NCBI GenBank assembly: GCA_963575745.1
Contig: CAUYUJ010000246.1
Location: 1-64,000, forward strand
DNA from: Prorocentrum cordatum
Lineage: Eukaryota
Length of the DNA stretch: 64,000 nt
Reading direction: 5' to 3'
Every line of letters begins with the position of its first letter. Position 1 is the first letter of the stretch. Below the pieces are notes generated by a model. It saw only the letters and a program-made list of their open reading frames with translations, ran no database searches and was not told where the DNA came from. The position numbers were made by a program, and so were the translations under genes. Shown here in pieces: positions 3,101-64,000 of the stretch.

Positions 3101-3101
3101 G

Positions 3102-10780: not shown

Positions 10781-10795
10781 GACGGCGCGCCGTGC

Positions 10796-28733: not shown

Positions 28734-28775
<42 letters not shown>

Positions 28776-45226: not shown

Positions 45227-45991
45227 TTTTGGGTGGTTTTGTGAATATTTCAAAGATATTTGACAATTTGTTTTGAGAAAGCAGATTCTTGCGCGTTGCA
45301 TTGGCATATGAACTCTTCTCTGACAGTAGCTCAGCTTCCGGGGTGCATTTTCTTATGAGTTGACTTCCGGGAACTGCGCGAATATGAAGATCGAAAAATT
45401 TAAATAGAAGGTTTTCCCGAAAGCCGCTTTTCACCCAGTAGCAGATTAAGACTTAGTACCTCGTAGAGCTCTTCGGCATCGATGAGCTAGAGGAATTCCG
45501 GCGCGGGGTGGAGCTAGTTGGCCGACCCGGCCTTAAGAGACAAAGTGGTGACTTTGGGTCGGTTTTGCTAGGATTTGAAAGATATTTGACAATTCATTTT
45601 CAGAAACCAGATTTTTCTCACGTGTAGTGGGTTATGACGCGTCAGCCAGTAAAATTTTCAGGTCCGGAGCTTGAATATTACTATCGAAAGACTTGCAGGA
45701 ACCGGTTCTGGATGAAAACCGAAAAATCGTGATTCCACGAATTTTTCTGCTCTCGCTTGAGAAGTTTCCTTGATGTGTTCCGAGAAGCGCTGCAACAAAA
45801 TAGCTCTACGAGGTGCCCGGCGGTAAACTGGTTGACGGTTTACCGCCGGTTCCCATAACTCGTAGAGCTTGCCTTAGCAAGTAACTCGTAGAGCTTCCCT
45901 TAGCTAGTTATAGCTGGAAGCTAAGAGTAATACCTCGTAGAGCTCTTCGTCATCGATGAGCTAGAGGAATTCGGGCGCGGGGTGGAGCTAG

Positions 45992-47111
45992 TAACTCGTA
46001 GAGCTTCCCTTAGCAAGTTATTGCTGGAAGCTTAAGAGTAATTCCGGGGAGCTGGAGAGCTAGTTGGCAAGAAAAATCTCGACGGACCTTTTGGTGACTT
46101 TTGGTCGGTTGAAAATTTTGTTCTCGAAATTTGACCATTCGTTAGAGCTCTAGTATTTTTTCCCATGATATTCGATCTTATTCCCGCTCGCCATCTTGAT
46201 CTCAGCTCGATCGGGTAACTTTGAAGGCCAAAAAGCAGGCAGGCGGGAACGGCCGTTTCGAGTCATCTTGATACGCGCTGTCGGTTTTCTCAAGATAACT
46301 CGAGCTTCAGAACAACTGCAGAGCTGGTCAGCACAGCTAATGCATTCAGAATGATCAGGCGCGTTCGCCTGTTGAATCTAGAGGTCTGAACTCGGTCTGC
46401 TAGCCGAGCTAGGGTCGCAACTCTATTCGTATTATTCGAGTCATTGTAGCAGACGCTCTCGGTTTTTCGTACTTAACTCGATCTGTAGGGCAGCCACAGA
46501 GCTGATAATCACAGAAATCGATTGAGAATTATCAGGCGCGTCCGTCCGTTAAATCCAGAGCTCTGAACTCGGCCTGCTCCCCGAGCTAGGTTCGCGAACC
46601 TATTGGTATTGTTCGAGTCATCTTGAGAAGTGCTCTCGGTTTTCTGTACTTAAATCGTGCTGGGGGAGGGCTACAGTGCTGCTGGTCACATGAATCGATT
46701 TCGAGACATCAGGCGCGTCCGTTCGTCGAACCGAGAGCTCGGAACTCGGTCTGGCACTCGAACGAGATCCGCGAAACTGTTGTATTATTCGAGTCGTCCT
46801 GAGAGGTACTCTCGGTTTTCTGCACTTAACTCAGGCTGTATGGGGGGCTGCAGAGCTGGTAATTACAGGAATCGATCCGCAGACATCAGACGCGTCCGCC
46901 TGCGCAGTGAGAGGTCTTAACTCGGTTTCATACTCGAGCTCGATTCGAAAACTGTTCGTTTGGTTTGTTAGAGTCATTTTGAGAGGTTTATAATCGCTTG
47001 GGCTGAAAACCTAGTCGTCCTCTGAAATTCTTCTTCACATTATATATTGTCAGGAAGCTCTACGAGTCCCCCGGCGGTAAGAAAGGTTGACGGTTTACCG
47101 CCGGCGCCCAG
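45992..47111 (+). mobile_element. Complete type A element, innermost of a four-level nest
   Basis: Flanks GGAGCTAG and TTGGCCGACCC rejoin to the type B 5' region. Confidence 0.85.
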
Positions 47112-48869
47112 TTGGCCGACCCGGCCAGAAAGGACAATGTGTTAACTTTTAGATAGTTTTGCGATTTTTCGAAATATATTTGACAATTCATTTTGAGAAA
47201 GCAGATTTTTCGCACCTGTAAACGACTATGAGGGCCTCTCTGTCTTAGTATGAGCTCTGTAGGCGCACTTTTACTATCAAAAGTCTTGGCGGAACCGTCT
47301 TCATGTCGACACGAAAAAAATCAATTTTTCTCTTTTTCGAGAAATGCTTCCAGAAGCTCTCTCTTTCGTCTCTGAGCACTCTTACGCGCGAAATGAGCTC
47401 TACGAGGTTCCCGGCGGTGACCAGGTTGACGGTTCACCGCCGGCACCATTCCGGCGCGCTGGAGAGCTAGTTGGCAAGAAAAATCTCGACGGAACTTTTG
47501 GTGACTTTTGCTCGGTTGAAAATTTTGTTCTCGAAATTTGACAATTCGTTAGAGCTCTAGTATTTTTTCCCGTGATATTCGATCTTATTCCCGCTCGCCA
47601 TCTTGATCTCAGCTCGATCGGGTAACTTTGAAGGCCAAACAGCACGGTGGCGGGAACGGCCGTTTCGAGTCATCTTGCTACGGGCTGTCGGTATTTTCAA
47701 CTTAACTCGAGCTGTAGGGCAGCTACAGTGCCTGTAAGCACAGCTATCGCACTCAGAATCATCAGGCGCGTTCGCCTGTTCAATCCAGAGGTCTGAACTC
47801 GGTCTGCTACCCGAGCTAGGTCCGCAAATCTATTCGTATTATTCGAGTCAACTTGATACGCGTTGTCGGTATTTTCTACTTAACTCGAGCTGTAGGGCAG
47901 CTACAGTGCTGGTAAGCACACCTATCGCACTCAGAATCATCAGGCGCGTTCGCCTGTTGAATCCAGAGGTCTGAACTCGGTCTGCTAGCCGAGCTAGGTC
48001 CGCAAACCTATTCGTATTATTCGAGTCAACTTGATACGCGTTGTCGGTATTTTCTGCTTAACTCGAGGTCTAGGGCAGCTACAGTGCTGGTAAGCACACC
48101 TATCGCACTCAGAATCGTCAGGCGCGTTCGCCTGTTAAATCCATAGGTCTAAACTCGGTCTGCTAGCTGGGCTAGGTCCGCAAACCTATTCGTATTATTC
48201 GAGTCATCTTGACAAACGCTCTCGGTTTTCTGTACTTAACTCGAGCTTTAGGGCAGTTACAGAGCCTATAGTCACATAAATCGATTGGGAATCATCGGGC
48301 GCGTTTGTCTGTTGTATCGAGAGCTCTGAACTCGGCCTGCTGCCCGAGCTAGCTTCGCGAAACTATTCGTATTCTCCGAATCATCGTGCAACGTGCTCTC
48401 AATTTTCTGCACTCAACTCGTGCTGGGGGAGGGCTACAGTGCTGCGGGTCATAGAAATCGATTTGCACACATCAGACGCGTTCGTTGGACGATTCGAAAG
48501 CTCAGAACTTGATTTGCTGCTCGAAACAGATTCGCGAAACTATTGTATTATTCGAGTCATTCTGAGAGATGCTCTCGGTTTTCTGCACTTAACTCGGGCT
48601 GTCGGGGGCTGCAGGGCTGGTAATCACATGAGTCGATTCGCAGACATCAGACGCGTCCGCCTGTCGCATTGCGAGGTCTGAACTCGGTCTGATACTCGAA
48701 CTGGATTGCGAAACTGTTTGTTTTTTTGTTAGAGTCATGGAAACTAGTCGTTCTCTGGATTATTTCCCACTCTATATACTGTCAGGAAGCTCTACGAGTC
48801 CCCCGGCGGTAAGAAAGGTTGACGGTTTACCGCCGGCGCCCAGTTATTGCTGGAAGCTTATAAGAGTAA

Positions 48870-50213
48870 TGCCTCATAGAGCTCTGATGGTAGAAGAGCT
48901 AGAGGAATTCAGCGACAGGGTGGAGCTAGTTGGCGAAATGTCGAAAAGAAACGCGATCATACCTTCCGCGGCCTGGCTCAGCCGATTTTGCAGTTCTCAC
49001 AATTCGTTTGGGCTGCTATTTGCGCAGAGCGAAGCTTGGCATTACAGAAGTTACCTCACAAATCCTTAGTTCATTCCGTCGAAAAAATCTCCCGAGCGAA
49101 GCCAGGGACCGACTTCGCGTTGGCAGTCCAAAAATGCAATTTTCCAGTTTTGCAGAAAATGCCATCAGAAGCTATCTGCTTGCACTTCTAGTTCTCTCAG
49201 GCGTCTGCTTGCACTTCTAGTGCCTCGTAGAGCTCTGAGGGTAGAAGAGCTAGAGGAATTCGGCGACAGGGTGGAGCTAGTTGGCGAAATGTCGAAAAGG
49301 GACGCGATCATACCTTTCGCGGCCTGGCTCAGCCGATTTTGCAGTTCTCACAATTCGTTTGGGCTGCTATTTGCGCAGAGCGAAGCTTGGCATTACAGAA
49401 GTTACCTCACAAATTCTTAGTTCATTCCGTCGAAAATTTCTCGAGCGAAGCCAGCGACCGACTTCGCGTTGGCAGTCCAAAAAAATGCAACTTTCCAGTT
49501 TTGCAGAAAATGCCATCAGAAGCTATCTGCTTTCACTTCTAGTTCTCTCAGGCGTCTGCTTGCACTTCTAGTGCCTCGTAGAGCTCTGATAGAGGAGCTA
49601 GAGGAATTCGGCGACAGGGTGGAGCTAGTTGGCGAAATGTCGAAAAGGGACGCGATCATACCTTCCGCGGCCTGGCTCAGCCGACTGGCGCCGGCAGTGA
49701 ACCGTCAACCTGGTCACCGCCGGGAACCTCGTAGAGCTCATTTCACGCGTAAGAGTTCTAAGTATCGAAAGAGAGAGCTTCTGGAAAAGAAAAATTATTT
49801 TTTTCGTGTCGACATGAAGATGTTCCGCCAAGTGTTTTCATAGTAAAAGCGCGCCTACAGAGCTGATACTGAGACAGAGAGCCTCATAATCGTTTACAGG
49901 TGCGAACAATCTGCTTTCTCAAAATGAATTGCCCAATATCTTTGAAACAATTGCAAAACCACCCAAAAGTTATCACTTTGTCCTTTCTGGTCGGGTCGAC
50001 CAACTAGCTCCACCCCGCGCCAGAATTCCTCTAGCTCATGGATGCCGAAGAGCTCTACGAGGTATTTTGCAGTTCTAACAGTTCGTTTGGGCTGCTATTT
50101 GCGCAGAGCGAAGCTTGGCATTACAGAAGTTACCTCACAAATTCTTAGTTCACTCCGTCGAAAAATTCTCCAGAGCGAAGCCAGGGACCGACTTCACGTT
50201 GGCAGTTCAAAAA
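48870..50213 (+). repeat. Head-to-tail 351-bp type C units
   Basis: TGCCTCRTAGAGCTCTG starts at 48870, 49221 and 49572. The first two units end CACTTCTAG; the third is interrupted. Confidence 0.85.
49685..50064 (-). mobile_element. Complete 380-bp type B element in inverted orientation, inserted at A|T without TSD
   Basis: Minus strand reads TACCTCGTAGAGCTC...CCGGCGCCAG. Flanks CTCAGCCGA and TTTTGCAG rejoin exactly to the two neighbouring uninterrupted 351-bp units. Confidence 0.92.
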
Positions 50214-51554
50214 TACCTCGTAGAGCTCTTCGGCATCGATGAGCTAGAGGAATTCCGGCGCGGGGTGGAGCTAGTTGGCCGACCCGACCAAAAGAGACAA
50301 TGTGATAACCTTGGGTCGGTTTTGCTTTGATTTGAAAGATATTTGACACTTCATTTTGAGAATCGGTATTATTCTCACGTGTAGTGGGTTATGCCGCGTC
50401 TGCCAGTTAAATTCTCAGGTCCGTAGCTGCAATATTACTATCAAAAGACTTGCTGGAACCAACTGCGTTCCGAGTCATCTTGACACGCGTTCACGGTTTT
50501 CTGTACTTAACTCGAGATTTTGAGAGCTACAGAGCTGATACTTACAGAAACCGATTCAGAATGATCAGGCGCGTTCGCCTGTTGCATCCAGAGGCCTGAA
50601 CTCGGTCTGCTACTCGAGCTAGGTCCGTAAAAGTCATCTTCACCAGTGATGCCGGTTTTCTGTACTCAACTCAAGATTCAGAGGAGCTACAGAGCTGGTG
50701 CGCACATAAACTGATTCAGTATCACCAGGCGCTTGCGTCTGTTGCATCGAGAGGCCTGAACTCGTTCTGCTTGTCGAGCTAGGTCCACAACGCTATTCGT
50801 ATTTCTCAAGTTTTCTTTAGAGGCGCTGTCGGTATTCTGCACTTAACTCTAGCTGTAGCACAGCTACAGAGGTGGTACGCACAGAAACCGATACAGAATC
50901 ATCAAGGGCGTTTGGCTGAAGCATCTAGAGCTCTGAACAGATTCTGCTTCTCGAGCTAAGTCCGCAAAACTAGTTGTATGCGATCGATTTTTTTTCGAGT
51001 TTTTTGGCACTCGCCTGAGCTTGCTTCACGTGTTCCGAGGAGCTGGGCAAGAAAAGAGCTCTACGAGGTCCCCGGCGGGTGTAGGGCTCCTGGACCCCAC
51101 AGGCAAGAAAAGGGCTCAAGACATCTCGGCTCTAGGGCTCCTGGACCCCACAGGAGCTCAGGGGGTGTCGGCGCCGCGGGGAAGCGGCGCGGCGGCCATC
51201 GCTGCCATCGACGAGTACGGCATCTTCCAGGCAAGCCAGGCCGCCTGCTTTGTGTACTGTATTTGTTGTTGTTTTTTTCTTGTCGTGTGTGCAACAACGG
51301 ACGGGTACGACTTTTCAATACTTGCTAGACGTTTCCAGCTGGAGGATATTTCCCCGACTGTACCTTATTTGCAGGACTCACAGGATTACGCTGTTGAGGG
51401 ACCAGATTCTGCTGTTGAGAGGGCGTCTCGGAAGAGGCAACTTCAGGATACCGAGCAAATTGTGCGTGACCTTCCACTGGACGGGAGATTGAATACTGCC
51501 GACTCCACACCAGATAGTGATTGTCATTGTGCTGTCCCATCTTCATTTGTGAAT

Positions 51555-52871
51555 ATGAATACAGGGCTCATGAATATGATGCAGACTCCTTCCAACGCAG
51601 CTGTGGCGGGAAATACGATCAACGGAGGGCGTGTGGGAGGGGCTCCAGCAGGTCAGGTCAGTCCTGGAGGTCAAGGATCTGGAGGCGCTCCTGTTGTTCC
51701 TAGAGGCCCAGCTCCACAAGGTGCTCTAGGGGGACCCCCAGGTATGCCCACGGAGGCACAACAAGCGGCGGCCCAAGCGGCTGTTGTCCCTGAAGGTGCT
51801 GGAGAGCATCAGGGTATGCAGGGTGTTAGCGACGACGCCCAACGAAATGTCAAACATCGTGTCAATGGTCCTCAGGAGGCACTCTTGGGGGAACTCGAGG
51901 AGAAGCGAAAGAAACTCAGTGTGGTCTCGGACGAGGCCCCATCCTGGTTCAAGGCCTTCGCGGAGCTCAACGTACTCGAGAGCAAAGTTAGGCAACAAGA
52001 AAACGTCGAAATTAGGGCCGATATTCAGAGCATCTCGAACCGTCAGGAGGCCTCCGACATCAGGATGAGCAACTTGGAACGACAAATGCAGGATCTCAAG
52101 AAGAACCCCAGTGTGATATCAGGTGCTGCCTCGACCACGGCACCTTCCTATGGAGGAGGCCCACCAGGACTCTCGGGACCATCCAGCTTCAATCCCAGCT
52201 ATGTGGAACTCACAGGCTGGACTGACTGGAGCGGGACAGCGGTTACACGTTCGGCCAGTATGATGAGAGACACGGACGCTGCACAATTTATCACTAATTT
52301 GAAGACGGCCATCGCTGCAGAGGATGAAGCTAGGATCGATTACGAGGGCACATTACGTATGAATGGAAGTAGAATGATGTTGAGTACGATCAAAATCAAA
52401 TTCTTTGTAGGAACCGACTCTTCGATACTATACAACGTGAAGCGTGCTTTTGATGATGCTTTAACTCCGAATCCCCAGAGGAATGCGGCTCAGGTTTCGA
52501 GGTCACCTCCAGACTATGACAGCATGTTCCAGGGCATGTTACAGCGACCCAGTCGGGTCCGAGTACGTATAGAAGCTCCACCATGGAAACGTGATCATAT
52601 CGGAGCTGTGGGGCGTTTCTACGGGACATACCGCGAGTGCACCAACGGTGAGGCTATGGAGATCAGGGGGGAGACAGGATCGGGACCCAACGGACGGAGC
52701 ACAATGTGGACCAAACCGCAGGATCCTCAGCACCGACCTGTGGAACTGGCATCCTTTCGTATCAATACGGGGTGGACAGTGGACCGCGAGATCTGGGAGG
52801 GTGTACTTATGCGCAGCGGTGTGACGACTACATACGACACATTTGTGGCGAGTCTTGCCGGCAGGGCGTGA
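51555..52871 (+). CDS. LINE ORF1-like protein (Gly/Pro/Gln-rich N-terminus, coiled coil, globular C-terminal region); start uncertain, frame is open from 51021
   Basis: Lies directly upstream of ORF2; heptad-like ELNVLESKVRQQENVEIRADIQSISNRQEASDIRMSNLERQMQDLKK. Confidence 0.7.
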   Translation: MNTGLMNMMQTPSNAAVAGNTINGGRVGGAPAGQVSPGGQGSGGAPVVPRGPAPQGALGGPPGMPTEAQQAAAQAAVVPEGAGEHQGMQGVSDDAQRNVKHRVNGPQEALLGELEEKRKKLSVVSDEAPSWFKAFAELNVLESKVRQQENVEIRADIQSISNRQEASDIRMSNLERQMQDLKKNPSVISGAASTTAPSYGGGPPGLSGPSSFNPSYVELTGWTDWSGTAVTRSASMMRDTDAAQFITNLKTAIAAEDEARIDYEGTLRMNGSRMMLSTIKIKFFVGTDSSILYNVKRAFDDALTPNPQRNAAQVSRSPPDYDSMFQGMLQRPSRVRVRIEAPPWKRDHIGAVGRFYGTYRECTNGEAMEIRGETGSGPNGRSTMWTKPQDPQHRPVELASFRINTGWTVDREIWEGVLMRSGVTTTYDTFVASLAGRA

Positions 52872-52928
52872 CGGTGCAGAGGTGCCAGTCGGGCTGGTGG
52901 CCCCACAGCCCAGCATAGGCTAGGCACC
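52869..52928 (+). promoter_or_regulatory. Candidate stop-codon readthrough signal: UGA-CGG, 9-nt spacer, stem-loop
   Basis: TGA at 52869-52871 followed by CGG. Pairings GGTGCC/GGCACC (52881-86/52923-28), AGTC/GGCT and GGGCTG/CAGCCC. Confidence 0.55.
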
Positions 52929-55900
52929 CAGAATCTTATGAAACAAGGGGCTACAGCAGATCGGGGATTTGCTTGCATGAGGGCACTTCTTTCTCACGGC
53001 TGTGAAGTGTTCTGTTTACAGGAGTGTGAACACTTACCGTCCAATTCAATTCAGCTGCTTGGCTGGCACCTAGTTTACTCAAGTGACAGGAAGGCTTCCA
53101 TAGCTTTGAGGGGGAAGTCTTGTCACAACATAGTTCGTTCTTGGAACAATCATGCTCGTCTTGCTATTGTGTGCTTGCGTCATCCGTGTATCTTTCTTGT
53201 CTCTGCGTACTTTCCGAATAGATCGGAGAATCGTTCATTGGAGGTGGCTTTTGAGATGCTGAAAACAATCGAAACAACATATCGGAGGTGGAAGGAGGAG
53301 TGCAGATACACATGTGAGCTTGTGATTGCAGGGGATTTTAATGTTGAGCTTGCGCCCGACATCACCTGTTCAGGAGGCACGGTGACTGGAGGCGCTGTGC
53401 AGATTCTCGACGGGAGGGGATATGGGAATGATACGGAGGATAGGCGGTGGGAGGAGGACATGTGGCGATCTCAGCTGCAGGAGTGGCTATGTCGGATGCG
53501 CTTGCTGGCAGTCAATTCTCTCGGCTCGCCGTACTCTCGGCAGCCGACCTTCGTGCATCGTGCGAACAATGCTCGACGCAAGTCTGGGGCGAAGACTATT
53601 GCGCCAAAAGTGCTTGACTATCTCATGGTCCCACAATCCTGGGAGGGTGACTTGGTTGAATGCCGAACGGATTGGATCCCAGAGACCCCGACTACCAACT
53701 TCTCGGATCACGCCTGTGTCTACGCCGAGTTCCAGATGCAGAACCCTCAGGTCACGAAATATCAAGGCCCCCCTAGCCACCACACAAGCCACAAAGAGTT
53801 CCAATCGTATCGGGAGGAGGCCCAATTCCAGGTCCTGGCGGACGTACAGATCCCGACGGTGCCCCCACAACGTATTGCTGGAACGATCGCTGAACATGCG
53901 TTACCACTCCTCGCGGTGAGGGCCCCCAGGTACTCCAGAGGGCTCCCACCAAGTAGGACTCCTCAACATGCCGACCTGGAGGTACAACTCAGAGAGGCAC
54001 GTGCTAGGAAGGACAGAGCGTTGGCTCGAGACCTTCGACGTCGCATCAGACCGCTGGCGCGGGAATATCGCCGACGGAAGGTGGAGTGGGAGGCACTACC
54101 ATCTAGGAAGGGGAGGAGGACACGTGTGACGGAGTTGAGGGTGACGGACACTGGGGGAGGGGATGTGGGTCCTACGACTATGATGACGGAGGACAGGGAA
54201 CTATGGGCGGAGGAGGTGGAGCGATATGCTGTGCAGAGTATGACTTGTGATGACTCCAGAGCCCGCAATCGGGAGCTAGTGTCCACACTGCGTCGCCATG
54301 CATCTCAATCAACAGCCTCTTCGGACAACACACTTACGATCACATACTCTACTATTCTGCAGGCGCGGAGCAGACTCCGAACAGGACGGGCCTGTGGGCC
54401 CGATGGCATCTCGGTTGAACTTCTCAAGGCTCTTTCGTGGAGGTCAGTGCGTTCTATTGGTAAGGTTTTCTCTGATATATTCAACGGGCTTCGCCCGACG
54501 CCAAGGGAATGGCAGGAAGTATACCTAACACTTATGCCGAAAACGAGTAAACTGGAAACATTGCGACAAACAAGGAACCTGCTTGTTGGAAATACCTTGG
54601 CCAAGTGGTATCTCACGTGCGTGACGATTTTACTGGAAAGATGTGTGGAACCCTTCATGAGTGATATGGCGGTCTACGGTTTTACCAGCGGACGGCGTTG
54701 CTGGGAGATTTCATCGGCCATGAAATGTATTGCACAGCATGCTTCCACATGGGGGCGAGATCAAACGGCGTGGCTCCTCAGCTGTGACATCGAGCGGGCG
54801 TTCGATGCTGTGACGCTGCCGACAGTCTCGAGAGCGATGACGGCCCTGGGGATCAGTGCACGGTTACAGTATGCGTTATTGGAGCCTCTCTCATCTACCT
54901 CATGCACGGTGCTGTTTGAAGGAGTGACAATCCCAAATGTGCAATGGGACAGGTCACTCCGTACTGGGGGTACCGAATCACCTATCGCGTTTACTATTGT
55001 CACTATTGCTATGTGGCGGGATGTGATTGCTCGCCTGGACCAGCGCGGTGTCGGAGTCGAGATGCCATGCCATGACGATCACTGCCGGTACGCACGGTGG
55101 AATCATGCTCTCTGGGCCGACAATATTTTTCTGGCCGCCAAGTCAGCATCGGAGGCGCAGGTAGCAGCCACTGCCTTCACTACTGCTCTCAGGGAGTGGG
55201 GGATGGAGTGGAAGGAGGAGAGTTTAGAAATGATGGTGTGTGGTACTCAGTACACTGATACGGTCACGGTTCAGATTGGCTCGCGGATTGTACCTTTCAA
55301 GCGTGTTGAGAGTTTGAATGTGCTGGGATATCAGATTCCCAGAAGTTTCACTGCTATCCACACGGATGTGCAGGAGCGCGTCCAGCAGGCCCGACGGGCG
55401 TTCTTTGCGCAGGTGCAGTATTTTACGTGCAGGGCGTTGCCTCTGGTGAAGAAGTTTCGTCGATATCAATCGACTGTGCAGAGCCGCCTTTTATATGCAG
55501 CAGAGGCCATCACGATTGACAGTGAGTGTGTGAGGGTTATTCATGCGTTCGAGGGTATGTGTCTTCTGAGAATGTCAGGGAGGAGGAAGCCAGGAGATGT
55601 GGGGTGGGAGGTATGGCGGCCAGCTGCACTGACACGTGTCAGGACAATCTTCTGCGATGGGGGTTTCCCATCGGCTGTGCAGATGCTGTGCTGGAAGAGC
55701 TGGGGCATGATGCGCTCCACGAGGCAATATTTACTATCTTTGGAGGAGGACAGGACGGCAAGGACGGAGGTTGAGGTGGAGGGATCAACGACTCAACGTG
55801 CTAAACGTGTTCGCTTTACGGAGGGACGGGGGGAGGATATACCTGCTGCGACTGTGATGGAGGCGGAGGGGAGGAGTACGGACATGGAGAGGAGGCTGGA

Positions 55901-57230
55901 GGATCTCTGCTCGCAGGTCGCCTGTTCCATTGCCCGCTCACAGCCGATGCCCTCTGGAGAGGGAGCTACCCACACTCTCAGAGACGAGCCGCTTGCCGTC
56001 TCAAAGGGGAGGAGGGCCTTTCGAGACTCCCGACGTGCGCTTATGATGTACAATGTTGGCTGGGTCACGGCTCGCGACACAATAACAGAGGTTCTACGAC
56101 AACACGGCAGCAGGGCCTTATCTAGTTCGGGCAAACGGCTTCGTGGAGGCCCTGTGTCTGTGGGCGGACGGTCTTGGCAGTTCCCATACATTCAGTTCTT
56201 TGGGGAAAAGTGGTGGGAGTCTGTACGGGGTGATTGGGTTCAATTCTTGGAGGTATGGAAGCAACTCCTTATACAATACAACAAATCTAAGGTCTATGAT
56301 TACTTTGTGGTGTCTTGGAAGGGCTCTCCTAATGGACCTCGAGGCTCCCCTGAGGCTCGTGAGAAGGCCGATACTGAGATGGTCGATACCGCGACCAACC
56401 CTCTGCACCCCAAGTATGACCCCAAAGAGTCCGCCAAGCTTGCAATACGATATGCGATGATCCAGGAACGCGCGACTGTGTGGGACATATCGTCAGAGGG
56501 TTTTGCTGCTGAGTTCAAGGGTGACTCACTACTTATCTGCTCCTGGCTCCAGGGTAAATGGAGATGTGAGAATCGTGGCTACTGCAAGAGGACAGCTGCC
56601 ATGATTGATTGTACCTTTGAGCTCGCCGCGTGTTTCAATCTGAGGCCTGCTGCCTTGGGACGTGAGATATGGAGACACGAATTCAGGGAGGACAATACAC
56701 GAGCGGATGAATTGACGCATGAGGCCAGATATGGCCGCACATTCTACAGAACTCATCGTTATCTATATCCATTCGAAACTTATCTCGTACCGTTCGCTAT
56801 CAGGGGAGGCTTTGATGGCGGGGTTGACCAGCAAGGATCAGGATGTGGTTTCTGGCTTCAGATCGGCTTAATCAATACTCAGTGCAATCCCAGTGAGATA
56901 GGAATCGCTTCCGCGAGAACCGTGGGCCCCTTCCCTGCTGGGCATGAGTTTGCTGTTTCTAGTGCCGTGCCCCTCGTTTGGAGGGATGTGGCCGAGGCCG
57001 CGTGGCTCCTCGAAGGAGCTACAGTCACAGAATGTGAATTGTCGGCAGCCGAAGCGCTGCTTAGCGCTGCCCGTGTGCTTCTGCGGGACCGGTCCTCGCC
57101 CAGCTGCACCCAGCTGGGAACGCGAGTCCAAACAAACAAACAAACCAGGTTGACGGTTTACCGCCGGCGCCCAAGTTCCGGAGCGCTGGAGAGTAGTTCG
57201 CAAGAAAAATCTCGACGGACCTTTTGCTGA
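52872..57230 (+). CDS. LINE ORF2: APE endonuclease, reverse transcriptase, permuted RNase H (first ATG at 52938)
   Basis: LGTQNL, FCLQEC, VSAYFP, AGDFNVEL, VLDYLMVP, FSDHACV (APE); GPDGISVELL, YGFTSGR, CDIERAFD, LRTGGTESP, LWADNIF (RT); KGDSLLI, NTRAD, FDGG, TECELSAAE (RNase H). Uninterrupted 1430 aa from the ATG. Confidence 0.93.
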   Translation, partial: RCRGASRAGGPTAQHRLGTQNLMKQGATADRGFACMRALLSHGCEVFCLQECEHLPSNSIQLLGWHLVYSSDRKASIALRGKSCHNIVRSWNNHARLAIVCLRHPCIFLVSAYFPNRSENRSLEVAFEMLKTIETTYRRWKEECRYTCELVIAGDFNVELAPDITCSGGTVTGGAVQILDGRGYGNDTEDRRWEEDMWRSQLQEWLCRMRLLAVNSLGSPYSRQPTFVHRANNARRKSGAKTIAPKVLDYLMVPQSWEGDLVECRTDWIPETPTTNFSDHACVYAEFQMQNPQVTKYQGPPSHHTSHKEFQSYREEAQFQVLADVQIPTVPPQRIAGTIAEHALPLLAVRAPRYSRGLPPSRTPQHADLEVQLREARARKDRALARDLRRRIRPLAREYRRRKVEWEALPSRKGRRTRVTELRVTDTGGGDVGPTTMMTEDRELWAEEVERYAVQSMTCDDSRARNRELVSTLRRHASQSTASSDNTLTITYSTILQARSRLRTGRACGPDGISVELLKALSWRSVRSIGKVFSDIFNGLRPTPREWQEVYLTLMPKTSKLETLRQTRNLLVGNTLAKWYLTCVTILLERCVEPFMSDMAVYGFTSGRRCWEISSAMKCIAQHASTWGRDQTAWLLSCDIERAFDAVTLPTVSRAMTALGISARLQYALLEPLSSTSCTVLFEGVTIPNVQWDRSLRTGGTESPIAFTIVTIAMWRDVIARLDQRGVGVEMPCHDDHCRYARWNHALWADNIFLAAKSASEAQVAATAFTTALREWGMEWKEESLEMMVCGTQYTDTVTVQIGSRIVPFKRVESLNVLGYQIPRSFTAIHTDVQERVQQARRAFFAQVQYFTCRALPLVKKFRRYQSTVQSRLLYAAEAITIDSECVRVIHAFEGMCLLRMSGRRKPGDVGWEVWRPAALTRVRTIFCDGGFPSAVQMLCWKSWGMMRSTRQYLLSLEEDRTARTEVEVEGSTTQRAKRVRFTEGRGEDIPAATVMEAEGRSTDMERRLEDLCSQVACSIARSQPMPSGEGATHTLRDEPLAVSKGRRAFRDSRRALMMYNVGWVTARDTITEVLRQHGSRALSSSGKRLRGGPVSVGGRSWQFPYIQFFGEKWWESVRGDWVQFLEVWKQLLIQYNKSKVYDYFVVSWKGSPNGPRGSPEAREKADTEMVDTATNPLHPKYDPKESAKLAIRYAMIQERATVWDISSEGFAAEFKGDSLLICSWLQGKWRCENRGYCKRTAAMIDCTFELAACFNLRPAALGREIWRHEFREDNTRADELTHEARYGRTFYRTHRYLYPFETYLVPFAIRGGFDGGVDQQGSGCGFWLQIGLINTQCNPSEIGIASARTVGPFPAGHEFAVSSAVPLVWRDVAEAAWLLEGATVTECELSAAEALLSAARVLLRDRSSPSCTQLGTRVQTNKQTRLTVYRRRPSSGALESSSQEKSRRTFC

Positions 57231-59333
57231 CTTTTGGTCGGTTGAAAATTTTGTTCTCGAAATTTGACAATTCGTTAGAGCTCTAGTATTTTTTCCCATG
57301 ATATTCGATCTTATTCCCGCTCGCCATCTTGATCTCAGCTCGATCGGGTAACTTTGAAGGCCAAAAAGCAGGCAGGCGGGAACGGCCGTTTCGAGTCATC
57401 TTGATATGCACTAACGGTTTTCTGAACATAACTCGAGCTCTAGGGCAGCTAGAGAGCTGGTAAGCACAGCTAATGCATGCAGAATGATCAGGCGCGTTCG
57501 CCTGTTCAAGCCAGAGGTCTGAACTCGGTCTGCTAGCCGAGCTAGGTTTGCAAACCTGTTCGTATTATTCGAGTCATCTTGACAGAAACTCTCGGTTCTC
57601 TGAACTTACTCGAGCTGTAGGACAGCTACAGAGCTGATATTTACAGGCACCAATTCAGAATCATCAGTTGCGTTTGTCTGTCGAATCCAGAGCTCTGAAC
57701 TCGGTCTGCTGCCCGATCTAGAATCGCGAAACTATTCGTATCGTTCGAGTCGCTTGCGATATGCAATCGGTTATCTGGACTTAACTCGGGCTGTAGGAGG
57801 CTGCATGGCTGGTAATCACTGGAATCGATTCGAAGACATCAGGCGCGTCCGCCTGTCGAATAGAGACCTCTGAACTCTGTCTGCTGCCCGAAGTAGGTCC
57901 GCGAAACTATTCCTATTGTTCGAGTCATCCTGAGAGGTGCCGTCGGTTTTCTGCACTTAACTCGGGCTACAGGGGGGTGCAGGACTGGTAATGACAGGAG
58001 TCGATTCGCAGACATCAGACGCGTTTGTCTCTCGCATTCAGAGGTCAAAAACTATCCACTATATATCAGATTGTTGGTAAGTGCTGTCTGTTTTCTCAAC
58101 TTAAGTCGAGTTAGGAAGCTCTACGAGTCTCCCGGCGGTAACCAAGGTTGACGGTTTACCGCCGGCGCCCAGTTATTGCTGGAAGCTTTAGAGTAATTCC
58201 GGAGCGCTGGAAAGCTAGTAACTCGTAGAGCTTCCCTTAGCAAGTTATTGCTGGAAGCTTAAGAGTAACTCGTACAGCTTCCCTTAGCAGGTTATTGCTG
58301 GAAGCTTAAGAGTAATTCCGGAGCGCTGGAGAGATAGTTGGCAAGAAAAATCTCGGCGGAACTTTTGGTGACTTTTGGTCGGTTGAAACTTTTGTTCTCG
58401 AAATCTGACCATTCGTTAGAGCTCTAGTATTTTTTCTGTGATATTCGATCTTATTCCCGCTCGCCATCTTGATCTCAGCTCGATCGGGTAGCTTTTACTG
58501 CCAAAAAGCACGGTGGCGGGATCGGCCGTTTCGAGTCATCTTGATACGCGTTATTGGTATTTTGTACTTAACTCGAGCTGTAGGGCAGCTACAGAGCTGG
58601 TAAGCACACCTATCGCATTCAGAATCATTAGGCGCGTTCGCCTGTTGAATCTAGAGGTCTGAACTCGGTCTGCTAGCCGATCTAGATCTGCAAATCTATT
58701 CGTAATATATGGGTCATCTTGATAGACGTTCTCGGTTCTCTGTACTTAACTCGAGCTACAGGACAGCTACAGAGCTCGTAAGTACACCTATCGCATTCAG
58801 AATCATTATTCGCGTTCGCCTGTTCAATCTAGAGGTCTGAACTCGTTCTGCTAGCCGAGCTAGGTCCGCAAACCTATTCGTATCATTTTGGTTATCTTGA
58901 TAGACGCCCTCGGTTTTCTGTATGTAGGGCAGCTGCAGAGCTCATAATCACAGAAATCGATTGGGAATCATTCGGCGCGCTCGCGCGTCGAGTCGAGAGC
59001 TCTGGGCTCGGCCTGCTGCCCGAGCTAGGTTCGCAAAACCATTCGTATTGTTCCAGTCATTCTGAGAAGTGCTCTCGCTATTCCGCACTCAACTCGTGCT
59101 GGGGGGGCTACAGTACTGCTGGTCCCGGAAATCGATTCTGAGACATCAGGCGCGTCCGTTTGTCGAATCCAGAGCTCGGAACTCGGTACTAGGTCCGCGA
59201 AACTATTCTATTATTGGAGTTGTTCGTTTTTTTGTTAGAGTCATCTTGAGAAGTCTGAAATCGCTTAGCCTGAAAAACTAGTCGTTCTTCGGAATTCTCT
59301 CCACATTCCTACGAGTCAGGAAGCTCTACGAGT

Positions 59334-60061
59334 GATGATGGGATCGGTCTCGAGCTGACGGGCGATTCGCTTCTTATCTGTAACTGGATCAATGGTCTCT
59401 GGAAGGTTGAGGGAGGAGAAGGAGGAGATGGGCTTCTTATCGTAGGCGGGTGGCAAATATTATTTCTCTTTTGGAAGAGTTGGAGGAGGAAGGAATACGA
59501 CCCCCCTCATGGGGCAACGACTTCATTCGACACATATATCGAGAGAGTAACACAGTAGCTGATGAACTTACCCACTTAGCACGGGAAGGCCAGATATTCA
59601 TAGAGCTGTTCCACCACCATATCTTTCGTTCTGATGTCCGAGACAACTTTCGAGTTATTGGCCTCCGCGGATCCTTCGACGGCGGAGTGTGTGCCCAAGG
59701 TGTGGGCGTTGGCTGGTTTCTGCAGATTGGATATATTCCTCGATTCCATGACCCTAACCCTGACCCTGAGCATAGAGATAAGAGAGCTCGGTGGGTTTTA
59801 AAAAAACAAAAAAAAATTACAACAAAGTCTCAACTCTTCCCCCAAGCCTCCCTCCTTGTCCAATCCATATGGGAAATAGTAGGGCGTTGTGCAACAGCAC
59901 TCCCTCCCATAAGCAGTATCACTGAACCTGAAGGTTTCGGCTCGAGGCCTCTGCGGCCCAGTCCAGTGGCCCAAACCTCCAGCTGCAGAGAAACAAGGTA
60001 CAACATAACGGGCGCTTGGGCGCCTCGGTGCCTGTCAGTCCCTCCCCAAAAAAAAAACAAA
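59334..60061 (+). mobile_element. Heavily 5'-truncated LINE (copy 4) retaining only the permuted RNase H region and an A-rich tail
   Basis: ELTGDSLLICNWINGLWKV (from ~59352), then frameshifted [36 protein letters not shown]. Flanked by AGCTCTACGAGT and TTGACGGTTACCGCC. Confidence 0.85.
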
Positions 60062-63000
60062 TTGACGGTTACCGCCGCGCCCAGTAAATTTCCGGGGAGC
60101 TAGAGTAGTTGGCAAGAACAAATCTCGACGGACCTTTTGGTGACTTTGGTCGTGAAAAATTTTGTTCTCGAAATTTGACAATTCGTTTGAGCTCTAGTAT
60201 TTTTTCCCATGATATTCGATCTTATTCCCGCTCGCCATCTCGATCTCAGCTCGATCGGGTAATTTTGAAGGCCAAAAAGCACACGGGCGGGAACGGCCGT
60301 TTCGAGTCATCGTGATACGCGCTGTCGGTTTTCTCAAGATAACTCGAGCTTCAGGACAACTACAGAGCTGGTCAGCACAGCTAATGCATTCAGAATGATC
60401 AGGCGCGTTCGCCTGTTGAATCCAGAGGTCTGAACTCGGTCTGCTAGCCGAGCTAGGGTCGCAAACCTATTCGTATTATTCGAGTCATTGTAGCAGACGC
60501 TTTCGGTTTTTCGTACTTAACTCGATCTGTAGGGCAGCCACAGAGCTGATAATCACAGAAATCGATTGAGAATTATCAGGCGCGTTCGTCTGTTGAATCA
60601 AGAGCTCTGAACTCGGCCTGCTCCCCGAGCTAGGTTTGCGAACCTATTGGTATTGTTCGAGTCATCTTGAGAAGTGCTCTCGGTTCTGTACTCGAATCGT
60701 GCTGGGGGAGGGCTACAGTGCTGCTGGTCACAGAAATCGATTTCGAGACATCAGGCGCGTCCGTTCGTCGAACCGAGAGCTCGAAACTCGGTCTGCTGCT
60801 CGAACGAGATCCGCGAAACTGTTGTATTATTCGAGTCATCCTGAGAGGTACTCTCGGTTTTCTGCACTTAACTCAGGCTGTATGGGGGGCTGCAGAGCTG
60901 GTAATCACAGGAATCGATCCGCAGACATCAGACGCGTCCGCCTGTCGCATTCAGAGGTCTGACCTCGGTTTCATACTCGAGCTCGATTAGAAAACTGTTC
61001 GTTTGTTTTGTTAGAGTCATCTTGAGAGGTCTATAATCGCTTGGGCTGAAAAACTAGTCGTTCTCTGAAATTCTTTTTCACATTGTATATTGTCAGGAAG
61101 CTCTACGAGTCCCCCGGCGGTAAGAAAGGTTGACGGTTTACCGCCGGCGCCCAGTTGGCAAGAAAAATCTCGACTGAACTTTTGGTGACTTTTGGTCGGT
61201 TGAAAATTTTGTTCTCGAAATTTGACTATTCTAGTATTTTTTCCCGTGATATTCGATCTCATTCCCGCTCGCCATCTTGATCTCAGCTCGATCGGGTGAA
61301 TATTACTGTCAAAAAGCACTCTGGCGGGATCGCCCGTTTGGAGTCATCTTGATACGCGCTGACGGTTTTCTGAACATAACTCGAGCTTGAGGGAAGCTAC
61401 AGAGCTGGTAAGCACACCTATCGCATTCAGAATCATTAGGCGCCTTCGTCTGTCGAATCCAGAGGTCTCAACTCGGTCTCTAGCCGAGCTAAGTCTGCAA
61501 ACTTATTCGTATTATTCAAGTCATCTTGACAGGAACTCTCGGTTTTTTTGCACTTAACTCGAGCTGTGGGACAGCTACAGAGCTGATATTCATAGAAACA
61601 GATTCAGAATCATCAGTTGCGTTTGTCTGTCGAATCCAGAACTCTGAACTCGGTCTGCTGCCCGATCTAGACTCGCAGAACTATTCGTATTGGTTGAACC
61701 ATCTTGAGAAGTGCTCTCGGTTTCCTCCATTCAACTCGCGCTGAGGGGAGCTACAGTGCTGTCACAGGAATCGATTTGAAGACATCAGACGCGTCTGCCT
61801 GTCGAATCCAGAGCGCGGAACTCGGTCTGCTGCCCGAATTAGGTCTGCGAAACTACTGTATTGTTGGAGTCATTCTGAGAGGTGCTGTCAGTTTTCTGCA
61901 CTCAACTCGGGCTGTAGGGCGGCTGCAGGGCTGGTAATGACAGAAGTCGACTCGCAGACATCAGACGCGTCCGCCTGTCGCATTGAGAGGTCAGAAACTA
62001 TTGACTATGAGTCGGGATGTTGGTAGGTGCTCGGTGTTCTCAGCTCCAGTCGAGCTGGAAGCTCTACGAGTCTCCCGGCGGTAACCAAGGTTGACGGTTT
62101 ACCGCCGGCGTCCAGTAATTCCGGCGAGCTGGAGAGCTAGTTGGCAAGAAAACTTTTGGTGACTTTTGGTCGGTTCGAAATTTTGTTCTCGAAATTCAAC
62201 CATTCGTTAGAGCTCTAGTATTTTTTCCCATGATATTCGATCTTATTCCCGCTCGCCATCTTGATCTCAGCTCGATCGGGTAACTTTGAAGGCCAAAAAG
62301 CAGGCAGGCGGGAACGCCGTTTCGAGTCATCTTGATACGCGATGTCGGTTTTCTGATTAACTCGAGCTTCAGGACAGCTACAGAGCTGGTAAGCACAGCT
62401 AATCGCATTCAGAATGATGAGGCGCGTTCGCCTGTTGAATCCAGAGGTCTGAACTCGGTCTGCTAGCCGAGCTAGGGTCGCAAACCTATTCGTATTATTC
62501 GAGTCATTGTAGCAGACGCTCTCGGTTTTTCGTACTTAACTCGATCTGTAGGGCAGCCACAGAGCTGATAATCACAGAAATCGATTGAGAATTATCAGGC
62601 GCGTTCGTCTGTTCAATCAAGAGCTCTGAACTCGGCCTGCTCCACGAGCTAGGTTCGCCAACCTATTGGTATTGTTCGAGTCATCTTGAGAAGTGCTCTC
62701 GGTTTTCTGTACTTAAATCGTGCTGGGGGAGGGCTACAGTGCTGCTGGTCACCGGAATCGATTTCGAGACATCAGGCGCGTCCGTTCGTCGAACCGAGAG
62801 CTCGGAACTCGGTCTGCTGCTCGAGCGAGATCCGCAAAACTGTTGTATTATTCGAGTCATCCTGAGAGGTACTCTCGGTTTTCTGCACTTAACTCAAGCT
62901 GTATGGGGGGCTGCAGAGCTTGTAATCACAGGAATCGGTCCGCAGACATCAGACGCGTCCGCCTGTCGCATTCAGAGGTCTGAACTCGGTTTCATACTCG

Positions 63001-64000
63001 AGCTCGATTGGAAAACTGTTCGTTTGTTTCGTTAGAGTCATAACTCGTAGAGCTTCCCTTGGCAAGTTATTGCTGGAAGCTAAGAGTAATTCCGGCGAGC
63101 TGGAGAGCTAGTTGGCAAGAAAACTTTTGGTGACTTTTGGTCGGTTAAAAATTTTGTTCTGGAAATGTGACAATTCGTTAGAGCTCTAGTATTTTTTCCC
63201 GTGGTATTCGATCTTATTCCCGCTCGCTATCTTGATCTCAGCTCGATCGGGTGAATATTACTATCGAAAAGCACTGTGGCGGGATCGGCCGTTTCGAGTC
63301 ATCTTGATACACGGTGACGGTTTTCTCAAGATAACTCGAGCTTCAGGGCAGCTACAGAGCTGGTCAGCACAGCTAATAGATCCAGAATGATTAGGCGCGT
63401 TCGCCTGTTGAACCCAGAGGTCTGAACTCGGTCTGCTAGCCGAGCTAGGTCCGCAAACCTATTCGTATTATGCGAGTCATCTTGACAGGCGCTCTCGGTT
63501 TTCTGTACTTAACTCGACCTGTAGGACAGCTACAGAGCTGATATCCACAGGAACTGATTCAGAATCATCAGTTGCGTTTGTCTGTCGAATCCAGAGCTCT
63601 GAACTCGGTTTGCTGCCCGATCTAGAATCACAAAATTATTCGTATTGGTCGAGTCATCTTGAGAAGTGCTATCGGTTTTCTTCACTCAACTCGCGCTGAG
63701 GGGGGCTACAGTGCTTGTTGTCACAGGAATCGATTTGAAGAGATCAGGCGTATCTGCCTGTCGAATCCAAAGCTCGGAACTGGGTCTGCTGTCCAAACTA
63801 GGTCCGCATAATTATTGTATTGTTCGAGTCATTCTGAGAGGTGCTGTCGGTTTTCCGCACTTAACTCGGGCTGTAGGACTGGCAATGACAGGGGTCGATT
63901 CGCAGACATCAGACGCGCCCGCCTTCGCATTCACAAGTCAAAAAATATTCACTATAAGTCGGAATGTTGGTAGGTGCTGTCGGTTCTCTCAACTGAAGTC

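What the first reader, a model, noticed from the sequence alone, without database searches (positions are those of the whole stretch)
45856..62115. Russian-doll array: elements insert into each other's first ~100 bp, giving balanced brackets
Openings at 45856 (A1), 45882 (A2), 45931 (B) and 45992 (A3) close in exact reverse order. A3 ends at 47111 and B resumes (GGAGCTAG|TTGGCC). B ends at 47448 and A2 resumes (AAGAGTAA|TTCCGG). A2 ends at 48843 and A1 resumes (TAGCAAG|TTATTG). A1 is interrupted again at 48870-57175 and ends at 58172. A second nest opens at 58219 and 58266 and closes at 60084 and 61154. Each insertion is 5' of a T (G|T, A|T, T|T, C|T) with no TSD, and these nested ones are co-oriented. 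The pattern implies self-targeting, perhaps by Rep bound at a resident 5' end, so the apparent satellite is built by recursive transposition and records its own insertion order.
Basis: partly seen in the sequence, partly recalled or inferred. Interest (0 to 1): 0.85.

Follow-up and report, generated by a model that had tools for sequence, protein, structure and literature searches.

The report
Nested rolling-circle transposons (Helentron/HINE) array
The region is a pile of small non-coding rolling-circle transposons of the Helentron type that have repeatedly jumped into a few fixed spots near each other's 5' ends, a real and tidy example of a behaviour already glimpsed in fungal Helitrons.

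Summary
The elements are Helentron-type non-autonomous elements (HINEs). They have subterminal inverted repeats, a 3' hairpin, 177-bp central repeats, no target duplication, and insertion 5' of T. A Helentron-like gene set (DUF6570, Rep, PIF1, APE, UCH) lies at 3-15.5 kb of the window.

In A-type hosts, 12 of 13 insertions fall in the first 109 of 1120 nt (P about 4e-12). They use seven sites. These include the apical loop of the 5' hairpin, a site 2 nt past its 3' base, and a site 22 nt further on. The last two offsets recur in family B.

The brackets are not a pure insertion log. Composites that read through a 3' end move as units: two 1745-bp copies are 98.7% identical in different hosts. 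One closing bracket has no opening, and inner copies are not consistently younger.

Multiple 5' termini from self-insertion are already reported for Fusarium Helitron2. This is therefore a new member of a known kind, and the hairpin-defined hot spots are the new detail. How targets are chosen is inferred, not shown.

The parts
3078..15491 (+). Coding region of a Helentron-like autonomous element (GC about 68%). It comprises DUF6570 (3078-4340), a Rep-like ORF (3910-8139) with HYH and YVTKYAT motifs, a PIF1 helicase (7863-9821), an APE-type endonuclease (10781-12934) and UCH (13800-15491). The 5' terminus is not in the window.
   Evidence: Pfam. Translation. Homologues fused to PIF1 and conserved H736/H738. 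Atlas nearest clusters carry PF14214, score 0.95. No 5' terminus motif in 1-34280.
34281..34308 (+). 3' arm of the terminal hairpin plus the terminus (…GGTTGACGGTTTACCGCCGGCGCCCAG). It is preceded by the A-rich tail of a LINE fragment and followed by A[51-end]. It is possibly the 3' end of the autonomous element.
34309..40445 (+). Run of closing pieces whose openings lie upstream of the window. In order: A[51-end] 34309-35536, A[86-end] 35537-36737, A[73-108] 36738-36772, a full A 36773-37834, A[109-end] 37835-39190, A[32-end] 39191-40086, B[40-end] 40087-40445.
40652..42396 (+). Read-through composite unit (A + B2[97-326] + B') inserted at position 116|117 of a B-type host (40538-40651 / 42397-42677).
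   Evidence: 1723 matches, 20 mismatches and 3 gaps against 44112-45855, with unrelated flanks.
44112..45855 (+). Source-like arrangement of the same unit: A nested in B2 at 96|97 (B2[1-96] = 44016-44111), then B2[97-326], then B' nested in B2.
45856..45881 (+). A1 opening, A[1-26]. It ends in the apical loop of the 5' hairpin (site S1, ...GCAAG|).
45882..45930 (+). A2 opening, A[1-49/50]. It ends 2 nt past the hairpin base (site S2b, ...GTAA|).
45931..45991 (+). B opening, B[1-61]. It ends at site S3 (...GCTAG|).
45992..47111 (+). A3, an uninterrupted family-A HINE of 1120 bp. Features: 5' TAACTCGTAGAGC, 5' hairpin at nt 3-48, 177-bp repeats, 3' subterminal inverted repeat, 10-bp hairpin, CGCCCAG end.
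47112..47448 (+). B closing, B[62-398].
47449..48843 (+). A2 closing, A[51-end].
48844..48869 (+). A1 middle piece, A[27-50].
48870..57175 (+). Composite with several 5' termini and one 3' terminus. D-type 5' termini lie at 48870, 49221 and 49572 (351-bp units). An inverted B lies at 49686-50064 (minus strand). The third D unit resumes at 50065-50213, and a B'-type element occupies 50214-51080. Its 3' hairpin loop holds a LINE (51081-57146; ORF1 50937-52871, ORF2 with RT 52872-57140), followed by the 3' arm and terminus at 57147-57175.
57176..58172 (+). A1 closing, A[51-end].
58173..58218 (+). A0 piece, A[27-72]. Its A[1-26] is missing from the expected place, so this is an orphan closing. Which of A1 and A0 owns the opening at 45856 is ambiguous.
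58219..58265 (+). C1 opening, A[1-47] (site S2a, ...AAGAG|).
58266..60084 (+). C2: A[1-1076] (58266-59333), a 5'-truncated LINE fragment (59334-60060) replacing 19 nt of the hairpin, then the 3' arm and terminus (60061-60084).
60085..61154 (+). C1 closing, A[48-end], with 2 extra bases at the junction.
61155..62115 (+). A0 closing, A[73-end].
62116..64000 (+). A[48-985] (62116-63040), an orphan closing, interrupted at 985|986 by a further A (63041 to the window end). This is the one body insertion seen.

Best explanation
The region 34.3-64 kb is an array of non-autonomous Helentron-type rolling-circle transposons (HINEs). There are families A, B/B'/B2 and D, plus a G-type element. The likely mobiliser is a Rep-PIF1-APE protein such as the one encoded at 3-15.5 kb.

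Proposed mechanism:
1. New copies travel as single strands and integrate without target duplication, 5' of a T that usually follows a purine.
2. Integration is strongly preferred on the top strand of the 5'-terminal ~110 nt of resident copies.
3. Within that leader the sites sit at fixed offsets from the 5' hairpin: its apical loop, the last stem pair, 2 nt beyond its 3' base (mirroring the true 5' nick, which lies 2 nt before its 5' base), and 22 nt further on.
4. I infer that the transposase recognises this hairpin region to nick the 5' terminus and also uses it as its preferred integration target.

Repetition of this gives nested brackets. Transposition that starts at an inner or leftmost 5' terminus and stops at a later 3' terminus then copies whole or partial nests as units. 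That produces stacked 5' termini, orphan closings and duplicated nests.

Shown: topology, hot spots, strand bias, absence of target duplication, composite copies. Inferred: the rolling-circle chemistry, the partner protein, and how the target is chosen.
For: HINE anatomy:
- A 5' subterminal repeat at nt 3-17 is matched by its complement, which ends 44 nt before the 3' end.
- A 10-bp 3' hairpin lies 7 nt from the end.
- Central repeats are 177-178 bp.
- These features agree with the HINE description in the passages read from PMC4067079.

Nesting: BLAST; flank mapping; colinear rejoining.

Bias toward the leader:
- 12 of 13 A-host events fall within nt 27-109, P=4e-12. They use 7 of 29 T sites, simulated P=0.016.
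- All five A[AG]|T sites of the leader (27, 48, 51, 73, 86) are used, against 0 of 26 such sites in the body (read).
- 10 of 13 events are at RR|T, and all 10 lie among the 6 leader sites out of 70, P=2e-11.

Hairpin geometry:
- A hairpin spans nt 3-48 with loop 26-29 (z=-3.9). B hairpin spans nt 3-37 (z=-3.1).
- The site 2 nt past the stem is A50|51 and B39|40. The next site is 22 nt on in both, A72|73 and B61|62.
- The A subfamilies differ by a compensated stem pair, AGCAA/TTGCT versus AGCTA/TAGCT.

Strand bias: 22 plus-strand versus 1 minus-strand 3' termini.

Composite mobilisation: two 1745-bp copies are 98.7% identical in different hosts, bounded exactly by a 5' and a 3' terminus. Three D 5' termini share one 3' terminus.

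Independent contigs show the same junction types. L001 has a 3' end followed by the S2b-equivalent site, and a doubled 5' terminus at ...AAGAG|.

Partner genes.

Precedent: FoHeli elements carry extra 5' termini of under 200 bp, attributed to self-insertion followed by mobilisation to the first 3' terminus (passages in PMC5148889). Up to five 5' termini are reported (PMC13342296).
Against: - Only one window was available; no genome is held. There are about 18-20 partly non-independent events, and two of the B-host events are copies of one event.
- The autonomous element's 5' end is not in the window. Its link to these termini rests on a half hairpin at 34281-34308 that is separated from the genes by a 13-kb satellite and LINE pieces. 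Its GC is 68% against 48% for the array.
- Rep identity rests on motifs and a language-model look-up. Pfam PF14214 did not hit, two PDB sequence searches found nothing, and the fold model was too poor to use.
- Some insertions lie outside leaders: A985|986, D265, D351, about B2-326, and the two events in L002.
- Inner copies are not consistently less diverged than outer ones.
- Long-range order was not checked with long reads. The public runs gave only 80-130-nt contigs.
Confidence: 0.72

Rival explanations
1. Target choice is purely local sequence: any purine|T that mimics the element's own nick sites (flank-G|TAAC at the 5' end, CCCAG|T at the 3' end). The hairpin and the position in the element play no role. 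The leader simply contains the best mimics.
For: The base before the cut is G 11 times and A 5 times out of 19, and T follows all 22 3' termini. AGTT occurs only twice in the A copy, both times in the leader and both are hot spots. Head-to-tail junctions at 43014|43015 and 45855|45856 look like insertions at a resident 3' nick site.
Against: 0 of 26 A[AG]T sites in the A body are used, against 5 of 5 in the leader. AATT occurs 6 times but only the leader copy is hit. The offsets from the hairpin are the same in A and B although the stems differ in sequence.
Confidence: 0.12
2. Few primary insertions occurred. Most of the apparent recurrence is inherited, because nests were copied as composites or by segmental duplication. 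The hot spots would then be pseudo-replicates.
For: There is one proven duplicated composite. Orphan closings lie at 42678, 58173 and 62116, and stacked D termini are present.
Against: Apart from the one duplicated pair, events at the same site involve different inserts and different host subfamilies. Site A50|51 is occupied by a LINE-bearing end, by a B and by the D composite, in hosts that differ in leader and 3' sequence. Independent contig L001 shows the same sites in a further subfamily.
Confidence: 0.12
3. Strand and site bias come from replication. Like IS200/IS605 elements (recalled, not from a call), the element may integrate into single-stranded lagging-strand template, where the leader hairpins extrude. 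Co-orientation would then reflect fork direction through the array, not recognition of the resident element.
For: 22 versus 1 co-orientation. The sites lie in or next to a stable hairpin. In L002, two plus-strand elements flank a 19-nt piece that reads as an inverted A central repeat, so orientation need not follow the host element.
Against: This does not by itself explain why the hairpins of the 3' end and the body repeats are not used by HINEs. It is not testable in one window.
Confidence: 0.15
4. The A and B elements are SINE-like retroposons mobilised by the LINEs that share their last ~29 nt.
For: Three LINE pieces end in ...GGTTGACGGTTTACCGCCGGCGCCCAG-like sequence.
Against: The shared stretch is only the 3' arm of the HINE hairpin, and it follows the LINE's own A-rich tail. 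At 51060-51080 the 5' arm and the subterminal repeat of the interrupted HINE are present in front of the LINE. The LINEs share no nucleotide similarity outside it and only 29-42% protein identity. A and B have exact 5' ends, inverted subterminal repeats, no poly-A and no target duplication.
Confidence: 0.03
5. The nesting is an assembly artefact of a collapsed or chimeric repeat.
For: The region is highly repetitive, and no long-read check was possible.
Against: The nested copies differ from one another by many substitutions, and each pair of flanks rejoins within its own subfamily. The same junction types occur in separately assembled contigs. Short public contigs show them too, with the caveat that their sides are under 30 nt (table 5).
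Confidence: 0.03

Closest known systems
Helentrons and their non-autonomous derivatives (HINE / DINE-1), Thomas et al. 2014, PMC4067079 (passages read)
   Same: Subterminal inverted repeats of 12-15 bp lie a few nt from the 5' end and about 38-60 nt from the 3' end. There is a short palindrome near the 3' end, a second inverted repeat forming a 5' hairpin, and central tandem repeats. Insertion is at T or TT with no target modification. The partner encodes Rep, helicase and an APE endonuclease.
   Different: The terminal sequences are new (5' TAACTCGTAGAGC, 3' CGCCCAG). The partner also carries DUF6570 and UCH domains and is much more GC-rich than the HINEs. The passages read do not report strong, site-specific insertion into resident 5' regions.
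FoHeli (Helitron2-type) elements of Fusarium with multiple 5' termini, PMC5148889 and PMC13342296 (passages read)
   Same: Extra 5' termini of under 200 bp sit in front of a single 3' terminus. They are explained by self-insertion near the 5' end followed by mobilisation from the leftmost 5' terminus to the first 3' terminus. The D triple terminus at 48870-49684 and the doubled terminus in L001 are the same thing.
   Different: This window preserves the full nests with their closing halves, up to four deep. That allows the insertion sites to be mapped to a few hairpin-defined positions shared by two families. The elements here are non-autonomous, satellite-bearing and array-forming.
Helitron/Helentron 'graveyard' loci and Helentron-borne satellites in oysters (review PMC12628747, passages read)
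   Same: Complete and truncated Helentron-type elements with central tandem arrays are inserted within one another and form repeat-rich loci.
   Different: Those loci are described as mixed in orientation and truncation. The passages read do not describe a defined target in the 5' region.
IS200/IS605-family HUH transposons such as IS608 (recalled from memory, not from any call)
   Same: Functional analogy only: single-strand transposition, subterminal hairpins that position the nuclease, cleavage at fixed offsets from a hairpin, strand-specific insertion next to a short target that resembles the element's own cleavage site, and no target duplication.
   Different: These are bacterial and use a one-tyrosine TnpA without a helicase. 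No homology was tested here.

Membership tests
HINE (non-autonomous Helentron) | Subterminal inverted repeats of 12-15 bp, 2-4 nt from the 5' terminus and about 38-60 nt from the 3' terminus | tested here: met
   ACTCGTAGAGCTTCC lies at nt 3-17. GGAAGCTCTACGAGT ends 44 nt before the 3' end of 45992-47111.
HINE (non-autonomous Helentron) | Short palindrome or hairpin close to the 3' terminus | tested here: met
   The 10-bp stem CCGGCGGTAA/TTACCGCCGG lies 7 nt from the end. It is present at all 22 plus-strand 3' termini; at three of them only the 3' arm is present because a LINE sits in the loop.
HINE (non-autonomous Helentron) | Insertion at T/TT without target-site duplication | tested here: met
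   17 of 17 listed right flanks start with T, and 13 of 17 start with TT. Rejoined hosts show no duplicated bases. Boundaries can be shifted by one T, so a T|T cut cannot be excluded.
HINE (non-autonomous Helentron) | Central tandem repeats or microsatellite in many copies | tested here: met
   Repeats of 177-178 bp, 2-6 copies per A element.
Helentron (autonomous) | Rep (HUH, two tyrosines) fused or adjacent to a PIF1-like helicase | tested here: inconclusive
   PIF1 is clear (PF05970, 1.2e-10). The Rep-like ORF has HYH and YVTKYAT motifs, conserved in 11 homologues, several of them fused to PIF1. The ten best family-bearing Atlas clusters all carry, or share a clan with, PF14214; the best scores 0.95. 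Against this, there was no Pfam hit, no PDB sequence hit, and the model was unusable at pLDDT 46.
Helentron (autonomous) | APE-type endonuclease domain downstream of the helicase | tested here: met
   PF03372, 7.8e-12, in 10781-12934 on the same strand, with no RT domain next to it.
Helentron (autonomous) | Shares termini with its non-autonomous derivatives | tested here: inconclusive
   No 5' terminus occurs in 1-34280. Only a 3' half hairpin at 34281-34308 is present, 19 kb downstream of the last ORF.
Canonical Helitron (Helitron1) | 5' TC, 3' CTRR, insertion between A and T | tested here: not met
   The ends are TAAC/TACC/TGCC and ...CCAG. The base before the cut is G in 11 of 19 cases.
Self-insertion composites of Helitron2 (FoHeli type) | Several short 5'-terminal segments in tandem before one 3' terminus | tested here: met
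   5' termini at 48870, 49221 and 49572 share the single 3' terminus at 57175. L001 889-935 plus the following full copy show the same pattern.
LINE-dependent SINE | 3' tail shared with a LINE as the LINE's own 3' UTR, A-rich or repeat tail at the very end, target duplications, frequent 5' truncation | tested here: not met
   The shared stretch follows the LINE's A-rich tail and is half of the HINE hairpin. No target duplication is present, and the 5' ends are exact.

The most novel reading that the evidence does not exclude
The conserved 5' leader (hairpin plus the AATTC...GCTAGTTGGC module shared by families A, B and D) may be a dedicated landing pad. On this reading the Helentron transposase, docked on a resident 5' hairpin, integrates incoming single strands at fixed offsets from it. 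That would be a self-homing rolling-circle system that grows satellite-like arrays by recursion and keeps out of genes. A LINE clade in turn appears to home to the loop of the HINE 3' hairpin, which would add a second layer of parasite-on-parasite targeting.
Probability: 0.3. Interest if true: 0.7.

Novelty: new member of a known kind. Interest (0 to 1): 0.5.

Why it matters
Little is known biochemically about how Helentron or Helitron2 transposases choose targets. Here the complete nests give base-exact empty and filled sites at a handful of positions defined by the 5' hairpin, in two families with different stem sequences.

- This turns a vague observation (extra 5' termini) into a testable model: the transposase uses the same hairpin for 5' nicking and for integration.
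- It shows how a satellite-like array can be built by transposition rather than by unequal exchange.
- It warns that such nests cannot be read as a simple insertion chronology, because read-through composites move as units.

Tried and rejected
- **Whole genome:** not held, so no genome-wide bracket parse was possible.
- **Rep domain:**
  - Pfam gave no hit, even at E=10.
  - PDB sequence searches with the protein and with a 12-sequence profile found nothing.
  - An AlphaFold2 model of residues 531-1180 with 14 sequences had mean pLDDT 46, so no fold search was run.
- **Public runs:** all four laid runs are short Logan contigs.
  - No record spans the nest, so the long-range order was neither confirmed nor refuted.
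  - Joints with sides under 30 nt are weak: a 3' end joined to A51 in X20, X1, X2 and X5, and a B 3' end joined to B23 in all four.
  - One run may be the window's own source.
- **Terminus scans:** scans of genome contigs and viral contigs for the 3' terminus found nothing.
- **Age test, inner younger than outer:**
  - On 178 shared columns, private substitutions gave 3 pairs for, 3 against and 1 tie, so the result is inconclusive.
  - All 15 A copies were used. The B, D and G elements were not tested.
- **SINE/LINE reading:** considered because the 8.3-kb insert carries RT ORFs rather than Rep. It was rejected (see rivals).
- **Earlier findings of this scan:** three look-ups returned nothing.
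- **Literature:**
  - The four searches found no paper describing hairpin-defined hot spots for Helentron self-insertion.
  - Passages were read from PMC11934779, PMC12001565, PMC13085455 and PMC12628747. They describe tandem arrays, nested loci or telomere-directed insertion, but not this.
  - The library lacks most subscription journals, and supplements were not read.

Full report
**What is there.** The window falls into three parts. The first is 1-15.6 kb at about 68% GC. The second is a 13-kb (GTGTGTCT)n satellite at 15684-28829, followed by LINE pieces. The third, from 34309 to the window end, is a 48-50% GC array of short elements.

A scan for the terminal motifs found 19 plus-strand and 1 minus-strand 5' termini, and 22 plus-strand and 1 minus-strand 3' termini. 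Most minus-strand hits of the 5' motif are the inverted subterminal repeat at 3' ends. Two one-mismatch hits, at 55714 and 62639, lie in unrelated sequence and were set aside.

**Check of the observation.** I took one uninterrupted copy (A3, 45992-47111, 1120 bp) and the rejoined B (61 + 337 bp) as references.
- Openings: A[1-26], A[1-49], B[1-61], then the full A3.
- Closings: B[62-398], A[51-end], A[27-50].
- Then the 8.3-kb insert, then A[51-end] ending at 58172.
- The second nest opens at 58219 and 58266 and closes at 60084 and 61154.

In a MAFFT alignment of 15 A copies, the rejoined leaders are colinear with intact ones. There are no lost or duplicated bases at the junctions, apart from two extra bases at 60085. 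Every 3' terminus is followed by T, and the base before a 5' terminus is a purine in 16 of 19 cases.

**What the elements are.** Family A has these features:
- TAACTCGTAGAGC at the 5' end.
- A 15-nt subterminal repeat at nt 3-17, whose complement ends 44 nt before the 3' end.
- A 10-bp hairpin 7 nt from the 3' end.
- A second inverted repeat that folds nt 3-48 into a 5' hairpin (z = -3.9).
- Central repeats of 177-178 bp.

Families B, B', B2 and D share the plan and part of the leader. This is the published anatomy of HINE/DINE-1, the non-autonomous Helentrons: subterminal repeats, 3' palindrome, central repeats, and TT insertion without target modification (passages in PMC4067079).

On the plus strand at 3-15.5 kb lie DUF6570 and a 1409-codon ORF with HYH and YVTKYAT motifs. 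After these come a PIF1 helicase, an Exo_endo_phos (APE) domain and a UCH domain.
- Eighteen database proteins match the Rep-like ORF, and several are fused to PIF1.
- The two histidines are nearly invariant in an alignment of 12 sequences.
- A language-model look-up places the ORF with Helitron_like_N clusters at 0.95.
- Pfam itself, two PDB sequence searches and a low-confidence fold gave no support.

The gene set is therefore Helentron-like. Its link to these HINEs is inferred. Its 5' end is outside the window, and only a half hairpin at 34281-34308 could be its 3' end.

**The 8.3-kb insert is a composite, not a B.** It holds three D-type 5' termini in 351-bp units and a B in the opposite orientation (49686-50064). 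It also holds a B'-type element whose 3' hairpin loop carries a LINE with an RT ORF, and it ends in a single 3' terminus.

The LINEs explain why three 3' termini (34308, 57175, 60084) have only the 3' arm of the hairpin. Three LINE tails sit in that loop. They share no nucleotide similarity and 29-42% or weaker protein identity.

**Is the 5' bias real?** In A-type hosts the first host base after the insert maps to A positions 51, 86, 73, 109, 32, 51, 27, 51, 27, 48, 73 and 48, with one at 986.
- That is 12 of 13 in the first 109 nt, which hold 29 of 316 T sites (P = 4e-12).
- In B hosts all five map to 40-117 of 398 (P = 1.4e-3). Two of the five are copies of one event.
- The 12 leader events use 7 sites (simulation P = 0.016).
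- All five A[AG]|T sites in the leader are used, and none of the 26 in the body (lists).

The geometry repeats between families. The cut in the apical loop is A26|27. A cut 2 nt beyond the 3' base of the hairpin is A50|51 and B39|40, mirroring the true 5' nick 2 nt before the 5' base. A cut 22 nt further on is A72|73 and B61|62. The A subfamilies differ by a compensated pair in the upper stem.

Separately assembled contigs show the same junction types in another subfamily. In L001 a 3' end is followed by the +2 site, and there is a doubled 5' terminus at ...AAGAG|. L002 shows two insertions outside a leader.

**Not a clean log.** The 1745-bp stretch 40652-42396 is 98.7% identical to 44112-45855 (1723 matches, 20 mismatches, 3 gaps). 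It is bounded by an A 5' terminus and a B' 3' terminus.
- In one copy its internal B2 piece is continuous with the left flank.
- The other copy sits at position 116|117 of a different B.
- The unit was therefore mobilised by reading through the A 3' terminus.

The same process explains the orphan closings at 42678, 58173 and 62116, and the stacked D termini. This is the model proposed for FoHeli elements with multiple 5' termini (PMC5148889; PMC13342296). Private substitutions on 178 shared columns do not rank inner copies as younger: 3 pairs for, 3 against, 1 tie.

**Mechanism.** I commit to single-strand rolling-circle transposition by a Helentron Rep-helicase. Integration is strand-specific, at purine|T sites positioned by the resident 5' hairpin.
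- Shown: the topology, the bias, the strand preference and the composites.
- Inferred: the chemistry and the way the target is selected.
- The rivals are pure nick-site mimicry, inheritance of a few events, and replication-linked single-strand targeting. They are not excluded, and the last is compatible with the main model.

**Novelty.** The element families are new, but the kind (HINE/Helentron) and the behaviour (self-insertion near the 5' end) are in print. What the four searches and the passages read do not describe is the mapping of complete nests to hairpin-defined offsets shared by two families (passages). I rate this a new member of a known kind with a useful mechanistic lead, interest 0.5.

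Noticed in passing
window 33606-34280, 51081-57146, 59334-60060: Three LINE tails sit in the loop of a HINE 3' hairpin. Each has its A-rich or (CAAA)n tail abutting (CCAGG)TTGACGG. They are the same clade by protein (29-42% identity, one weak match at E=0.004) but share no nucleotide similarity. This suggests a LINE lineage that homes to that loop.
   Followed up: partly
window 15684-28829, flanks 15600-15684 and 28840-28925: A 13-kb (GTGTGTCT)n satellite with strong strand asymmetry (AT skew about -0.87). It is flanked on both sides by a similar GC-rich ~60-nt motif (…GAGGGCG[AG]AGTGG…GGGAGGGC[TC]GGCCCC…). A shorter GT/CA-rich block lies at about 32640-33560.
   Followed up: no
window 1-15600 versus 34309-64000: The Helentron-like coding region has 65-70% GC and the HINE array 48-50%. 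The partner also carries DUF6570 (3078-4340) and UCH (13800-15491) domains. One database relative fuses UCH to PIF1 (P0020).
   Followed up: partly
window 40446-40537, about 43950-44015; L001 470-888: A fourth element type (G) starts (T)CCCGGATAGCTCC and has an inverted repeat, CCCGGATAGC…GCTATCCGGG, of variable span. It is hit three times at the same site 17 nt past the repeat (…GGACGCTTA[CG]AAG|T).
   Followed up: partly
window 43014|43015 and 45855|45856: Exact head-to-tail junctions, with a 3' terminus directly followed by a 5' terminus. These would also be amplified by outward PCR meant to detect circles.
   Followed up: no
coded runs: Near-identical words of the 3.2-kb stretch occur in 20 listed runs of 15 studies. 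Most are marine, estuarine or freshwater plankton metagenomes, so the host is probably a widespread planktonic eukaryote. No attempt was made to name it.
   Followed up: no
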